Source of the DNA: Candidatus Zixiibacteriota bacterium
GTDB taxonomy: Bacteria > Zixibacteria > MSB-5A5 > DSPP01
DNA length: 64,000 nt
NCBI GenBank assembly: GCA_022614805.1
Contig: JAKEHY010000009.1
Coordinates: 5,118-69,117 of the forward strand
Direction of reading: 5' to 3'
Under the pieces are notes generated by a model, which saw nothing but the letters and a program-made list of their open reading frames with translations, made no database searches and was not told the origin of the DNA. Of the stretch, positions 21,953 to 24,328 are shown one piece after another. A program made the translations under genes and the position numbers. Numbering within the stretch: position 1 is the first letter of the stretch; each line of letters starts with the position of its first letter.

Positions 21953-24328
21953 TTGACGCGAAGACGAGTTTTTTCAACAATGCTGCTGGCACTCCTGCCC
22001 GTCTCTCTATATGCCTTTGAACCCCTCTTCAATACCTGGATAAGCTATGACGTGGGGAATCTTCCCCTTGCGGTAACCGCCGCCGACGTCGATGGAGATG
22101 GGGATTTGGATTTGGTGACCACCAACCGGGGCCACCATTGGTTTCTGCAAGACAGCACGGTATCGGTATTAAAGAACAATGGGGATGGAAGTTTTGCCTC
22201 CCGCTCGGACTACGTGGTGGGAGGCCATCCCACCTCCGTCGTCCCCAGCGATTTGAACGGAGACGGGGATTTGGACCTGGCCGTAGCCGCCGAAGATGGG
22301 TATCTCTATACTATGACCAACGACGGAACCGGGTCCTTTGGGGACAAAACCGGCTACTTTTTGGAAATCGGGTACTACCCCTCGATTTCCGCCTCGGATT
22401 TGGACGGCGACGGGGACTCCGATTTGGCCGTAAGCGACTATGGAAACAGTCGGTTTCACATTTTGAAAAATAATGGAGGGGGAAGTTTCGATACCATAAC
22501 TACCTATGCGGCCACCGCTCCACCCGTCGCAATTTTTGTTGCGGATTTGGATGGAAACAGCTATGGCGATATTGTCTTGTCCAACGAAAGAGGGGCCCAC
22601 AAAGTTACTGTCGCATTAAATGCAGGAGACGGCACCTTTACCCCCGGCGCCAGCTACGGAACCAGCACGCTGGGCTCCGGCACGGTTTTCGCCTCCGACC
22701 TGGATGCCGACGGCGATTTGGACTTGGCCGTTGCGAATTCATACGACAGCACCGTCACGGTGCTGAAAAATAACGGCCTCGGAATCTTTATCGACGAGGC
22801 CGACTATCCGGCCGGCAGAGACCCGAGCTCGGTTTTTGCCGCCGACCTCGACGGCGACGGCGACCAAGACCTGGCGGTTGCCAACCTGCACGGGCACAGC
22901 CTTTCCGTTCTCTTAAACACGGGGAATGGAACATTTGCTTCGAAAGCGGATTATGAGGTGGGTTTGGTTCCGATGTCGGTTTTCTGTGCCGACCTGGACG
23001 GGGACGGCGACCGGGATATGGCCGCCGCCAATTACTGGAGCCACAGCGTGGCCGTTATGAAAAACAACGGAGACGGAAGCTTTGCACGGGAAACCTCCCA
23101 TCCGGCGGGAGCCGGTCTGGTTGGGGTGCTGGTCGCAGATTTGGACGGAGACACCAAGCGAGACCTGGTTGCCTTAAACAGCGGTGGCAACACCGTGTCG
23201 GTGTGGAGAAACCGAGGAGAAGGGAACTTCGATACTCGGGCCGACTACGCTGCCGGAACCCTTCCGACAACCATCCTGGCGTCTGACCTGGATCAGGACT
23301 TGCATTTGGACCTGGTAACGACAAACCCGGAAGAGAAAAGTCTTTCCATTATTAAGAACAACGGGGATGGGGGCTTCGCCGCCCGAGTTGAACTCAAATT
23401 AGGGGTCCACCCTTGCGCGCTGGCCTCCTCCGACCTGGACCGGGACGGAGATTTCGACCTGGCGGTTGCGGATGACAGTCTGAACACCGTTTTGGTGCTG
23501 CTAAACGTCGGCTTCGGAAATTTTGCCGACCCCGTTGGTTATACCGTCGGGGAGGCTCCGGTCGACCTTCTGGCCGCCGACCTTGACGGGGACAAAGACG
23601 TTGATTTGGCCGTGGCGAACCGGAATTCCGCCACCCTTTCCATCCTTCAAAACACGGGGACGGGAACCTTTGGGGATGCAGCCGTATACGATGTGCAAAC
23701 CGGTCCGCTTTCTGTCTATGCCTCCGATTTGGATGGGGATAAGGCCCCGGACTTGGCGATAGTGATTGCACCCGGGCCGGGAATGCCCGTCGGCGGCGTC
23801 TCGGTCTTGAAAAACAAAGGGGATGGCACCTTTTCCCCCGGAGAGAGTTACCGGGCGGGCATTTATCCCGTTTCCGTTGTTGCCTCCGATTTGGACGGAG
23901 ATGCCGATGCGGACCTCGCGGTTGCGAATTCGCGCAGCAGTTCTGTTTCCGTACTTTTGAACGCCGGCCAGGGGGGCTTTACCGAGCGCCAGGATTACGG
24001 AACTGGAGTTACGCCGACTTCGCTGTCCGCCGCGGACTTGGACCAGGACGGAGACCAAGACGTTGTCGTGGCCAACTACTCCGGCAGCACGGTCTCCGTA
24101 TTAATGAACCGGGCCAACAGGGGGTGTGCGTTAAAACGTGGAGACTTAAACCATGATTGTTTTTTAACGGCGGAAGACATCATACTGGAGATAAACTGCT
24201 TTAGCCAGGGGCTCGGCGACTGCCGTCTGGAATTAACCGATCTTAATTGTGACGGAGAATTGACGGCGTCAGACGTGGTTTTGCTGCTCGGCACCTTTTT
24301 TGCGGAAACGCCCCTCCCCTGTCCGTAA
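21953..24328 (+). CDS. FG-GAP/VCBS-repeat beta-propeller-type secreted protein with a C-terminal dockerin-like (tandem Ca-binding) domain
   Basis: More than 12 repeats of the DLDGDGDLDLAVAN...SVLLNNGDGTF type. The C-terminus has two 22-aa segments, GDLNHDCFLTAEDIILEINCFS and TDLNCDGELTASDVVLLLGTFF, matching the dockerin D-x-N-x-D-G loop plus helix. TTG start at 21953 with GGAGG 9 nt upstream. N-terminal signal-like LLALLPVSLYA. Confidence 0.7.
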   Translation: MTRRRVFSTMLLALLPVSLYAFEPLFNTWISYDVGNLPLAVTAADVDGDGDLDLVTTNRGHHWFLQDSTVSVLKNNGDGSFASRSDYVVGGHPTSVVPSDLNGDGDLDLAVAAEDGYLYTMTNDGTGSFGDKTGYFLEIGYYPSISASDLDGDGDSDLAVSDYGNSRFHILKNNGGGSFDTITTYAATAPPVAIFVADLDGNSYGDIVLSNERGAHKVTVALNAGDGTFTPGASYGTSTLGSGTVFASDLDADGDLDLAVANSYDSTVTVLKNNGLGIFIDEADYPAGRDPSSVFAADLDGDGDQDLAVANLHGHSLSVLLNTGNGTFASKADYEVGLVPMSVFCADLDGDGDRDMAAANYWSHSVAVMKNNGDGSFARETSHPAGAGLVGVLVADLDGDTKRDLVALNSGGNTVSVWRNRGEGNFDTRADYAAGTLPTTILASDLDQDLHLDLVTTNPEEKSLSIIKNNGDGGFAARVELKLGVHPCALASSDLDRDGDFDLAVADDSLNTVLVLLNVGFGNFADPVGYTVGEAPVDLLAADLDGDKDVDLAVANRNSATLSILQNTGTGTFGDAAVYDVQTGPLSVYASDLDGDKAPDLAIVIAPGPGMPVGGVSVLKNKGDGTFSPGESYRAGIYPVSVVASDLDGDADADLAVANSRSSSVSVLLNAGQGGFTERQDYGTGVTPTSLSAADLDQDGDQDVVVANYSGSTVSVLMNRANRGCALKRGDLNHDCFLTAEDIILEINCFSQGLGDCRLELTDLNCDGELTASDVVLLLGTFFAETPLPCP

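What the first reader, a model, noticed from the sequence alone, without database searches (positions are those of the whole stretch)
21953..24328. FG-GAP/VCBS beta-propeller protein ending in a dockerin-like double Ca-binding repeat
A dockerin module (GDLNHDCFLTAEDIILEI / TDLNCDGELTASDVVLLLG) on a non-cellulolytic repeat protein implies a cohesin-like partner and a protein-protein docking system on the cell surface. No cohesin-like gene is visible in this window.
Basis: partly seen in the sequence, partly recalled or inferred. Interest (0 to 1): 0.5.

Follow-up and report, generated by a model that had tools for sequence, protein, structure and literature searches.

The report
Secreted propeller protein with disulfide-stapled dockerin tag
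A secreted calcium-binding repeat protein of an uncultured Zixibacteria-type bacterium ends in a real but unusual, cysteine-rich dockerin module that related bacteria attach to dozens of unrelated secreted proteins, and whose binding partner (no cohesin was found) is still unknown.

Summary
ORF 21953-24328 (+) encodes a 791-aa protein with a signal peptide, 14 FG-GAP/VCBS repeats (Pfam 329 bits) and a 67-aa C-terminal tail with two intact Ca-binding loop-helix motifs.

The tail alone misses Pfam's Dockerin_1 cutoff (20.2 vs 22.9 bits), but three tests place it as a dockerin:
- A profile of its subfamily hits mainly solved dockerins in the PDB (best E = 4e-5).
- hhalign to Pfam-positive dockerins on sister proteins gives 98.9% probability.
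- A confident AlphaFold model (pLDDT 89.6) matches 32 dockerin structures first (TM up to 0.8).

It belongs to an uncurated cysteine-rich subfamily with four core Cys plus a covarying optional pair, which suggests 2-3 disulfides. The module is a modular C-terminal tag. One related MAG carries at least 28 copies, 66% identical to each other, on at least 14 unrelated cargo types. The window's own assembly has at least one more copy. On the same cargo families the tag alternates with T9SS sorting domains.

No cohesin was detected in the scanned parts of the window, next to orthologs, or in a candidate partner family. The inferred cohesin docking system therefore remains unproven. This is a new variant of a known kind and is moderately interesting.

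The parts
21715..21744 (.). Strong bidirectional terminator-like hairpin (13-bp stem, 10 GC pairs) after the upstream T9SS-tail gene. It isolates the FG-GAP gene as its own transcription unit.
21822..21851 (+). Sigma-70-like promoter match (TTGTCA-18-TAAATT, 9/12). This is a weak consensus match only.
21940..21945 (+). Shine-Dalgarno-like GGAGGA, 7 nt upstream of the TTG start codon.
   Evidence: read directly from the sequence
21953..24328 (+). Complete gene, 791 aa plus stop: signal peptide, 14 FG-GAP repeats and a Cys-rich dockerin tail.
21953..22015 (+). Sec-type signal peptide, aa 1-21 (MTRRRVFSTMLLALLPVSLYA | FEPLF). There is no lipobox Cys. The mature N-terminus F-E/Q-P-L-F-D/N-T-W is conserved in orthologs. 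This was read by eye; no signal-peptide predictor was available.
   Evidence: orthologs from L008, L010, L013
22040..24109 (+). Fourteen FG-GAP/VCBS repeats (aa ~30-719, period ~49 aa), each with a DxDxDGxxD-type Ca loop. That is enough for two seven-bladed beta-propellers, but the propeller fold was not modelled.
24110..24325 (+). C-terminal Cys-rich dockerin module with its short linker (aa 720-791). The query has seven Cys: 725, 736, 749, 757, 766 and 790 at conserved family positions, plus 745, which is not a conserved position. The AF2 model shows loop-helix, a short helix, then loop-helix.
24143..24178 (+). Ca-binding loop 1 (aa 731-742, DLNHDCFLTAED). Ligand positions are D731, N733, D735 and D742. 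Position 6 is Cys736 where canonical dockerins have Gly.
24239..24274 (+). Ca-binding loop 2 (aa 763-774, DLNCDGELTASD). Ligand positions are D763, N765, D767 and D774. Cys766 is present in 98% of subfamily tails and pairs in occurrence with the C-terminal Cys790.

Best explanation
The gene encodes a Sec-exported, calcium-binding FG-GAP/VCBS protein, probably a double seven-bladed beta-propeller, that serves as a ligand-binding or adhesive 'cargo'. Its last ~67 residues form a genuine dockerin fold: two EF-hand-like Ca loops, each followed by a helix. The module belongs to a distinct, uncurated subfamily probably stapled by two to three disulfides. In this protein the likely pairs are Cys725-Cys736, Cys749-Cys757 and Cys766-Cys790. 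The module is not specific to this protein. In Zixibacteria-type and allied FCB-group MAGs it is a modular C-terminal tag on many unrelated secreted proteins, including proteases, propellers and HYR/Ig/BNR/beta-helix proteins. On the same cargo families it alternates with the T9SS sorting domain. The most likely function is Ca-dependent, non-covalent tethering of secreted proteins to a shared receptor on the cell envelope. That receptor is unidentified. It may be a very divergent cohesin or something else. Shown: the ORF, the repeats, dockerin homology and predicted fold, cysteine covariation, multi-copy tag behaviour and the alternation with T9SS tails. Inferred: the disulfides, the propeller number, surface location, docking function and the route across the outer membrane.
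For: Dockerin identity: the subfamily profile A1 against all PDB sequences returned 23 dockerins among 24 hits, best 2y3n_B at E=4e-5, with most alignments spanning both repeats. hhalign of A1 against PF00404-positive tails of sister FG-GAP proteins gave 98.9% probability, E=2.4e-17, over 67 columns. The AF2 model has pLDDT 89.6. Its Foldseek PDB hits 1-32 are all dockerins, with TM up to 0.81 and rmsd ~1.9 A. Some subfamily members pass Pfam's cutoff (29.9, 23.7 and 23.4 bits). Ca sites: ligand columns are 98-100% D in 169 non-redundant tails. Disulfides: C30, C38, C47 and C71 are present in 96, 95, 98 and 89% of tails. The N-terminal Cys co-occurs with C17 or C41 (95/11/10/53). C17 and C41 are never both present. 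C30 and C38 are lost together. 146 of 169 tails have an even Cys count. Tag behaviour: 28 signature matches in MAG CAZSIT01. Those tails are 66% identical on average, while the cargos fall into at least 14 unrelated groups. Cargo domains include Peptidase_M6, reprolysin-like, HYR, DUF7619, CarboxypepD_reg, Beta_helix/NosD, BACON_2, TIG, BNR/Sortilin and two FG-GAP types. 190 of 226 carriers have a single copy at the extreme C-terminus. A paralog, P0022, lies in the window's own assembly. Alternation with T9SS tails: of the 120 best FG-GAP homologs, 18 have a Cys-dockerin, 36 another dockerin-like tail and 21 a T9SS CTD. In a second cargo family, 57 of 119 have a dockerin and 24 of 119 a T9SS CTD. 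The lineage has T9SS: a Por_Secre_tail protein is the upstream neighbour, and sprA lies next to an ortholog.
Against: No binding partner was found. No Cohesin domain was detected in the scanned ~54 kb of the window, in ortholog neighbourhoods or in the one candidate family. This single sequence falls below Pfam's Dockerin_1 and NCBIfam's dockerin_GC cutoffs. The route across the outer membrane of a diderm is unknown, so the protein could be periplasmic. The ligand of the propeller is unknown. No structural model of the body was made, and the closest PDB sequences are only designed 'Cake' propellers.
Confidence: 0.55

Rival explanations
1. Classical reading: the tail docks onto a bona fide cohesin module of a scaffold or anchor protein encoded elsewhere in the genome, forming a non-cellulolytic, cellulosome-like surface assembly.
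For: The fold and both Ca sites are those of type I dockerins, and all 32 top structural matches are dockerins, most of them solved in complex with a cohesin. The two repeats keep near-symmetrical helices (LT..DVVL.LN.VFLG in both), as in dual-binding dockerins. Dozens of carriers per genome with a conserved tag resemble cellulosomal enzyme sets.
Against: No Cohesin hit appears anywhere I could look, although that covers only a few percent of each genome. Dockerins without matching cohesins are documented; for example R. albus has many dockerins and at most one putative cohesin (PMC4300822). None of the cargo proteins I scanned with Pfam showed a CAZyme catalytic domain. The residues at helix positions 10 and 11, which mediate cohesin recognition in C. 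thermocellum according to my own background knowledge, are variable here.
Confidence: 0.3
2. The tag binds a non-cohesin receptor. One concrete candidate is the ~180-aa all-beta 'middle domain' family (DPxDSVIIESK...ITNKD...PVNFVKS). These small proteins carry either a T9SS sorting tail (possible surface anchors) or a dockerin tail (possible adaptors). They occur in tandem arrays in the same MAGs.
For: The family has 142 members, mostly from Zixibacteria MAGs, with several paralogs per contig. It co-occurs with FG-GAP-Cys-dockerin proteins in GCA_964607165.1 and GCA_973907855.1. Its domain logic, beta domain plus anchor tail or beta domain plus dockerin, mirrors that of anchoring and adaptor scaffoldins.
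Against: This rests on co-occurrence only. There is no Cohesin similarity in Pfam (0 of 119 members among the listed families) or PDB. The single-sequence AF2 model was unusable at pLDDT 34. The family was not found in the window, and its presence in the window's genome is unknown. It may simply be another cargo.
Confidence: 0.12
3. The tail is mainly a secretion or sorting signal, or a Ca- and disulfide-stabilised folding cap, and not a docking module. It could, for example, be recognised by a T2SS-like apparatus for outer-membrane transit.
For: The tail sits strictly at the C-terminus with a conserved P-x-P-C(P) end. It occupies the same slot as the T9SS CTD on the same cargo families. Two T2SS/T4P-like gene clusters lie nearby in the window, at 24465-32430 and 37038-46267.
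Against: Adjacency to the pilus genes is not conserved among orthologs, and the gene converges on pilT and is not co-transcribed with it. To my knowledge T2SS substrates have no linear C-terminal signal. Some proteins carry the module at both ends or together with a T9SS CTD (P0130, P0051), which suits a binding module better than a cleaved signal.
Confidence: 0.1
4. The tail is not a distinct feature: the two motifs are degenerate FG-GAP calcium loops.
For: The FG-GAP repeats themselves carry DxDxDG loops.
Against: The tail is predicted helical with high confidence, not beta. It matches dockerin structures and profiles. It also occurs on many proteins with no FG-GAP repeats.
Confidence: 0.01

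Closest known systems
Type I dockerin modules of clostridial and ruminococcal cellulosomes (Pfam PF00404; e.g. PDB 4dh2 Doc435, 5lxv, 2y3n, 1ohz/2ccl Xyn10B dockerin)
   Same: A ~65-aa module with two duplicated segments. Each segment has a 12-residue EF-hand-like Ca loop (D/N at positions 1, 3, 5, 12) followed by a helix. The overall three-helix fold matches (TM 0.7-0.8, rmsd ~2 A). It sits at the C-terminus of secreted proteins and has many carriers per genome.
   Different: It has four to six conserved cysteines (probably 2-3 disulfides) that are not conserved in the solved dockerins aligned. Cys replaces the canonical Gly at loop-1 position 6. The end is a conserved P-x-P-C. The host is a diderm FCB-group bacterium. 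None of the cargo proteins I scanned showed a CAZyme catalytic domain. No cohesin has been found. The single sequence falls below the Pfam cutoff.
Environmental 'GDxNGDG...DVVYLINYLFKGGPxP...GDxNCDG...C' dockerins on FG-GAP and other proteins of uncultured bacteria (PF00404-positive; NCBI names such as 'dockerin type I repeat-containing protein [Candidatus Zixiibacteriota]')
   Same: Clearly homologous (hhalign 98.9%, E=2.4e-17). They share the loop-2 Cys and the terminal Cys. They occupy the same C-terminal slot on the same FG-GAP bodies.
   Different: The query's subfamily adds the C30-C38 pair (helix 1 to linker) and an optional N-terminal pair. It replaces the YLINYLF helix motif with L.LNCVFLG.
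T9SS C-terminal sorting domains (Por_Secre_tail PF18962 / FlgD_ig PF13860)
   Same: They occupy the same position on the same cargo families in the same lineages. They are a genome-wide C-terminal tag that determines the surface fate of secreted proteins.
   Different: The fold is unrelated: a beta-sandwich versus the helical Ca-binding dockerin. This protein has no PF18962 hit. A sorting role for the dockerin tag is only an analogy.
Non-cellulosomal dockerin-bearing proteins (survey by Peer et al. 2009, seen only through citing papers; Omnitrophota giant ORF with nine dockerins, PMC10066038)
   Same: Dockerin modules on non-CAZyme proteins in organisms with no known cellulosome, proposed to act in adhesion.
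   Different: The cysteine-stapled signature, the expansion to at least 28 copies in one genome and the alternation with T9SS tails were not mentioned in the papers I could read. I could not read Peer et al. itself.
NCBIfam NF041540 'GC-type dockerin domain-anchored protein'
   Same: A weak partial match to the second repeat (19.4 bits, residues 44-67 of the tail).
   Different: The score is below the 29-bit cutoff. Only 3 of 19 subfamily tails touch the model at all, so the subfamily is not covered by it.

Membership tests
Dockerin type I (PF00404) | Two tandem ~22-residue segments of common origin | tested here: met
   aa 730-750 and 762-782 are 10/21 identical with 32-aa spacing. The profile alignment to solved dockerins spans both repeats.
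Dockerin type I (PF00404) | EF-hand-like Ca loop with D/N at positions 1, 3, 5 and D at position 12 in each segment | tested here: met
   D731/N733/D735/D742 and D763/N765/D767/D774. The ligand columns at loop positions 1 and 12 are 98-100% Asp, and positions 3 and 5 are D/N/S in nearly all of 169 subfamily tails.
Dockerin type I (PF00404) | Loop-helix (F-hand) x2 fold with a connecting short helix | tested here: met
   AF2 pLDDT 89.6 with helices at model residues 21-33, 40-43 and 53-64. Foldseek PDB hits 1-32 are all dockerins, TM up to 0.81. This is a prediction, not an experimental structure.
Dockerin type I (PF00404) | Score above Pfam's curated gathering threshold | tested here: not met
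   13.7 bits (whole protein) and 20.2 bits (isolated tail) against 22.9. Some subfamily members pass at 29.9, 23.7 and 23.4 bits. Profile-level homology is significant.
Dockerin type I (PF00404) | Ca-dependent binding to a cohesin module | not testable with these tools
   This needs binding assays or complex modelling.
Cohesin-dockerin (cellulosome-like) system | Cohesin-bearing scaffold or anchor protein in the same genome | tested here: inconclusive
   No PF00963 hit in the scanned ~54 kb of the window (first ~10 kb not scanned) or in 13 kb around paralog P0022, nor in ortholog flanks. The rest of the genome could not be scanned.
Cohesin-dockerin (cellulosome-like) system | Multiple dockerin-bearing proteins per genome | tested here: met
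   At least 2 in the window's assembly and at least 28 in the related MAG GCA_964607165.1.
Cohesin-dockerin (cellulosome-like) system | Carbohydrate-active enzyme cargo | tested here: not met
   The cargo domains found are FG-GAP, M6 and reprolysin-like peptidases, HYR, DUF7619, CarboxypepD_reg, Beta_helix/NosD, BACON_2, TIG and BNR. No glycoside hydrolase was seen among 19 carriers scanned.
FG-GAP/VCBS repeat beta-propeller proteins (PF13517/PF01839) | Repeats scoring above the Pfam threshold | tested here: met
   FG-GAP_3 329.1 bits against 26.9 and FG-GAP 152.4 bits against 22.1, with 14 stretches each.
FG-GAP/VCBS repeat beta-propeller proteins (PF13517/PF01839) | Seven-bladed propeller fold | not tested
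   Fourteen repeats fit two seven-bladed propellers, but no model of the body was made. PDB sequence hits are only designed 'Cake' propellers.
T9SS type A cargo (PF18962 C-terminal domain) | Por_Secre_tail or FlgD_ig-like CTD at the C-terminus | tested here: not met
   This protein has no PF18962 or PF13860 hit. Many homologs and the upstream neighbour do.
NCBIfam NF041540 GC-type dockerin | Score above the curated cutoff (29 bits) | tested here: not met
   19.4 bits, a partial match. Only 3 of 19 subfamily tails match weakly.

The most novel reading that the evidence does not exclude
The cysteine-stapled dockerin is the address tag of an unrecognised, cohesin-independent surface-display system of Zixibacteria and allied FCB-group bacteria that works in parallel with T9SS. 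Dozens of secreted proteins per cell would dock by Ca-dependent binding onto a new receptor fold. The receptor could be the tandemly arrayed ~180-aa 'middle-domain' proteins, whose T9SS-tailed members would act as covalently anchored scaffolds and whose dockerin-tailed members would act as adaptors.
Probability: 0.12. Interest if true: 0.7.

Novelty: new variant of a known kind. Interest (0 to 1): 0.4.

Why it matters
Dockerins are best known as the connectors of Gram-positive cellulosomes and are used widely in synthetic biology. This case shows a disulfide-reinforced dockerin variant used as a genome-wide C-terminal tag in uncultured diderm bacteria. It sits on proteases, adhesin-like propellers and Ig-type proteins instead of cellulases, is interchangeable with the T9SS sorting domain, and has no recognisable cohesin nearby. 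If its receptor were identified, that would reveal how a poorly known phylum organises its cell surface. It could also provide a new, oxidation-stable orthogonal docking pair. As it stands, this is a well-characterised variant of a known module with an open partner question, not a new kind of system.

Tried and rejected
1. A word-indexed homolog search with the 78-aa tail gave only one hit, a 61-aa dockerin fragment. The subfamily was recovered through the full-length search instead.
I replaced it with a hand-built degenerate DNA signature.
3. The 7-12x tandem-dockerin proteins at the top of the exhaustive search (P0124, P0125, P0127, P0137) were considered as possible scaffolds. I rejected them as partners: they are other dockerin subtypes whose scores simply add up over copies.
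4. The 'middle domain' was tested as a hidden cohesin. Pfam on the single proteins found nothing, PDB phmmer found nothing, the single-sequence AF2 model had pLDDT 34 and was unusable, the 3-sequence and 119-sequence profiles against PDB found only the dockerin part, and Pfam on all 119 members listed no Cohesin. This is not supported, but not excluded at the fold level.
5. Conserved synteny that might reveal a partner was checked in six neighbourhoods. Nothing was shared.
6. The literature gave no paper on dockerins in Zixibacteria. Peer et al. 2009 is not held.
7. The afdb50 fold library was unavailable.
8. Three contig look-ups found nothing on record. One search was my coordinate error on a minus-strand gene. 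probably failed because my start codon differed from the called gene.
9. The idea that the tail is a set of degenerate FG-GAP loops was rejected on fold and distribution.
10. A Tat signal was considered because of the RRR in the N-region. I rejected it because orthologs have ordinary Sec-type signals without RR.
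Full report
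**1. What is there**

The window holds an ORF at exactly 21953-24328 on the + strand (791 aa). NCBI's annotation of the source contig calls the same 791-aa product. The source is assembly GCA_973680415.1, contig CCYTVS010000026.1, 510 kb. An identical-protein record for a paralog is labelled 'candidate division Zixibacteria bacterium', a phylum of the FCB group.

The TTG start is preceded by GGAGGA seven bases upstream. A 13-bp GC-rich hairpin at 21715-21744 follows the upstream gene, and a weak promoter-like match lies at 21822-21851. The gene converges on a pilT-like ATPase gene at 24465-25580, so it looks monocistronic.

The protein has three parts:
- A Sec-type signal peptide, aa 1-21, with no lipobox. 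This was read by eye. The cleavage-site context A|F-E-P-L-F is conserved in orthologs.
- Fourteen FG-GAP/VCBS repeats. FG-GAP_3 scores 329 bits (E=3.4e-100) and FG-GAP 152 bits. Fourteen DxDxDG loops recur every ~49 aa.
- A 67-aa tail from Cys725 to Pro791.

**2. Is the tail a dockerin?**

As a single sequence it misses the curated thresholds. Pfam Dockerin_1 gives 13.7 bits in context and 20.2 bits in isolation, against a cutoff of 22.9. NCBIfam dockerin_GC gives 19.4 against 29. Four independent lines still show that it is a dockerin.

- (a) Both 12-residue loops have the canonical ligands: D731/N733/D735/D742 and D763/N765/D767/D774. The two segments are 10/21 identical and 32 residues apart.
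- (b) An alignment of 19 orthologous tails (A1), searched as a profile against every PDB sequence, returned 24 hits with E up to 10. Twenty-three are dockerins. The best is 2y3n_B at E=4e-5, and most alignments span both repeats.
- (c) hhalign between A1 and 14 tails that Pfam does accept as PF00404, from sister FG-GAP proteins (A4), gives 98.9% probability and E=2.4e-17 over 67 columns.
- (d) An AlphaFold2 model built on A1 is confident (mean pLDDT 89.6, pTM 0.76). It shows loop-helix, a short helix, then loop-helix. Its 32 best Foldseek matches in the PDB are all dockerins, with TM up to 0.81 and rmsd ~1.9 A over 63-68 of 72 residues. EF-hand proteins appear only after rank 32 with negligible scores.

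Several members of the same subfamily also clear Pfam's cutoff, at 29.9, 23.7 and 23.4 bits. The tail is therefore a divergent member of the dockerin fold and superfamily. The alternative that it is a set of degenerate FG-GAP loops is excluded.

**3. A cysteine-stapled subfamily**

The tail differs from the solved dockerins it was aligned to in its cysteines. I aligned 169 non-redundant C-terminal tails to the A1 profile. They were collected from the full-length search, the exhaustive profile search and one MAG. Results:
- Four Cys columns are nearly universal: C30 96%, C38 95%, C47 98%, C71 89%.
- A third pair is optional. A Cys just before the first loop co-occurs with a Cys either at loop-1 position 6 (C17, as in this protein) or in the linker (C41). 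The 2x2 table is 95/11/10/53.
- C17 and C41 never co-occur (0 of 105 tails that have either).
- C30 and C38 are lost together (7 tails lose both, 2 lose one).
- 146 of 169 tails have an even number of Cys.

The C47/C71 pair (the 'NCDG' Cys and the terminal Cys) is shared with the canonical environmental dockerins. I infer two to three disulfides. In this protein the pairs would be 725-736, 749-757 and 766-790. That fits an extracytoplasmic, oxidising location. The statistics are not phylogeny-corrected, and I could not measure distances in the model, so this remains an inference.

NCBIfam has no model for the subtype. Only 3 of 19 tails touch dockerin_GC, all below its cutoff.

**4. The tail is a modular tag, not a feature of this protein**

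I built a strict DNA signature from the invariant columns. It matches the window once, with 0 expected by chance. Across 185,579 GTDB species-representative genomes it matched 27 stretches of DNA in just two MAGs. Twenty-six stretches, with 28 matches, belong to one MAG, CAZSIT01 (GCA_964607165.1), labelled 'uncultured Ignavibacteria bacterium'.

All 28 are distinct proteins with the module at the extreme C-terminus. Over the 56 core columns the tails are on average 66% identical (range 46-89%). The cargos fall into at least 14 mutually unrelated groups. Pfam finds the following cargo domains:
- Peptidase_M6 (on the single carrier in the second MAG, CAZNWB01) and reprolysin-like metalloprotease
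- two kinds of FG-GAP repeat
- HYR, DUF7619, CarboxypepD_reg, Beta_helix/NosD, Big_9/LVIVD, BACON_2 and TIG
- BNR/Sortilin and Ycf48-like propellers

One 8-kb stretch (L030) holds at least five consecutive tagged genes.

The strict signature under-counts the spread. The assemblies that hold P0013, P0077 and P0110, and the window's own assembly, are not in that genome collection. The exhaustive profile search over 1.84 billion cluster representatives found 4,023 hits at E<=1e-3 and 428 at E<=1e-10. Most have a single C-terminal copy, on proteins of 74 to 1,420 aa.

The window's own assembly has at least a second carrier: P0022, 821 aa, 40% identical with the same tail, on contig CCYTVS010000003.1. 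Within the 64-kb window there is only this one copy.

**5. Alternation with T9SS tails**

I classified the C-termini of the 120 best homologs of the FG-GAP body with an approximate regex and HMM scheme. The counts are 18 Cys-rich dockerin, 36 other dockerin-like double repeats, at least 21 T9SS sorting domain (PF18962/PF13860) and 45 neither.

A second, unrelated cargo family behaves the same way. This is the ~180-aa 'middle domain' described in section 6. Of its 119 members, 57 have a dockerin tail and 24 have a T9SS tail.

The lineage clearly uses T9SS. The gene immediately upstream in the window (20857-21696) ends in a Por_Secre_tail domain. One ortholog lies next to sprA. The dockerin tag and the T9SS CTD are therefore alternative C-terminal 'fates' for the same secreted proteins. 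That is the main reason I favour a localisation or tethering role.

**6. The cohesin question**

I found no cohesin in any of these places:
- The window's large unannotated proteins, scanned directly with Pfam.
- The precomputed Pfam annotations covering window positions ~12-56 kb. Only the first ~10 kb, which holds housekeeping-looking ORFs, went unscanned.
- The 10-kb flanks of six homologs in five assemblies, which also share no synteny.

I followed one lead. P0130 and two CAZSIT01 proteins carry a ~180-aa domain next to or between Cys-dockerins. It is predicted all-beta and its sequence pattern resembles a beta-sandwich. It defines a family of 142 small proteins, mostly from Zixibacteria MAGs and often in tandem arrays. 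It co-occurs with FG-GAP-Cys-dockerin proteins in two assemblies.

It shows no Cohesin similarity. Pfam found none on the single proteins or on all 119 members, and PDB searches with the single sequence and with the 3- and 119-sequence profiles found only the dockerin part. My last structure job, run without an alignment, gave an unusable model at pLDDT 34. It may simply be another cargo.

A genome-wide cohesin search, which is the decisive test, is not possible with these tools. The papers I could read report that dockerins and cohesins occur widely in non-cellulolytic organisms. They give examples of many dockerins with at most one putative cohesin (R. albus, PMC4300822) and of multi-dockerin proteins proposed to act as adhesins (Omnitrophota, PMC10066038). 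Both cite Peer et al. 2009, which I could not read. A dockerin does not by itself prove that a cohesin exists.

**7. How it most likely works**

- Shown: a signal peptide by inspection, 14 Ca-loop FG-GAP repeats, a dockerin-fold tail with two intact Ca sites, conserved and covarying cysteines, and the behaviour of a modular multi-copy tag that alternates with T9SS CTDs.
- Inferred: the protein is exported by Sec and folds into a double propeller that binds an unknown ligand. FG-GAP propellers are ligand-binding platforms in integrins and many bacterial surface proteins; that statement rests on my background knowledge. Its disulfide- and Ca-stabilised dockerin then tethers it non-covalently to a receptor shared by all tagged proteins of the cell.
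- Unknown: whether the receptor is a divergent cohesin (about 0.3), a new fold such as the middle-domain family (about 0.12) or something else; whether the tail instead serves export (about 0.1); and how the protein crosses the outer membrane. The two T2SS/T4P-like clusters nearby are not conserved neighbours.

**8. Novelty and verdict**

The architecture FG-GAP plus dockerin is already common in public data. Of the 120 homologs listed, 24 carry PF00404, and NCBI already names some Zixibacteria proteins 'dockerin type I repeat-containing'. The basic finding is therefore not new.

As far as the libraries and papers available here show, three points are new:
- the cysteine-stapled signature, which curated models miss;
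- its use as a high-copy tag on unrelated, mostly non-CAZyme cargo in diderm FCB-group MAGs;
- its interchangeability with the T9SS sorting domain, with no detectable cohesin so far.

I classify it as a new variant of a known kind, with interest 0.4.

Noticed in passing
P0124, P0125, P0127, P0137 (also P0126, P0128, P0148, P0196, P0211, P0212, P0190, P0257): Proteins of ~750-1,200 aa made of 7-12 tandem dockerin-like modules. P0124 and P0125 have an N-terminal signal or anchor, coiled-coil ends, a segment that by eye resembles a peptidoglycan-binding domain, and modules bracketed by Cys (SCGDFN...LKCPAP). P0127 combines 12 modules with a C-terminal region that by eye resembles a subtilisin-type (S8) protease. 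Such poly-dockerin arrays are unusual and unexplained.
   Followed up: partly
L030 (CAZSIT010000021.1), L040 (CDABML010000136.1), family A2/A3: An unannotated ~180-aa, predicted all-beta domain (DPxDSVIIESK...ITNKD...PVNFVKS) defines ~142 small proteins, mostly from Zixibacteria. They occur in tandem arrays of up to about six paralogs, each ending in either a dockerin or a T9SS sorting domain. There is no Pfam or PDB match for the domain.
   Followed up: partly
window 53416-56184 (-) and 61951-63984 (-): Two large paralogous proteins (922 and 677 aa) have no Pfam hit at E<=0.01. They share a C-terminal ~90 aa (…VYPNPYRID…NFINLP..C.IRIYTLDGDLV…GLYL…GKIVIIQ/K) that reads like an unrecognised T9SS-type sorting domain.
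   Followed up: no
window 18683-20833 (+) and 20638/20857-21696 (+): Two adjacent PPC-domain genes lie upstream; the second carries the T9SS tail. The second ORF extends ~220 nt upstream in a different frame, overlapping the low-complexity end of the first, and that extension reads like real protein. This suggests one gene split by a frameshift or an assembly error.
   Followed up: no
window 58772-60997 (-): A 741-aa protein with no Pfam hit ends in a Pro/Cys-rich tail (…EPPGGPPPCCPGPCP). Like the dockerin protein it ends in 'PCP', but it has no Ca-loop motifs.
   Followed up: no
window 24465-32430 (-) and 37038-46267 (-): Two separate type IV pilus/T2SS-like clusters lie within 22 kb. The first has PilT, secretin, PilO/N/M and pseudopilins. 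The second has secretin, a PilM-like gene, three pseudopilins, GspF and an MshE/GspE ATPase. The 585-aa gene between the secretin and PilO (27100-28857) is extremely Pro/Ala/Thr/Ser-rich.
   Followed up: no
L037 (JBFOMQ010000600.1, GCA_040960215.1) 2294-12553: The FG-GAP-Cys-dockerin ortholog P0110 lies directly downstream of a 2,124-aa SprA (T9SS translocon) gene and an M28 peptidase gene. In L036 the ortholog follows an FG-GAP protein with a T9SS-type tail.
   Followed up: no
L005/L006 13723-20277 (-): A 2,184-aa protein with many ASH/HYDIN-type Ig domains also ends in the Cys-rich dockerin tag (78 bits). It lies two genes from the FG-GAP ortholog P0096.
   Followed up: no
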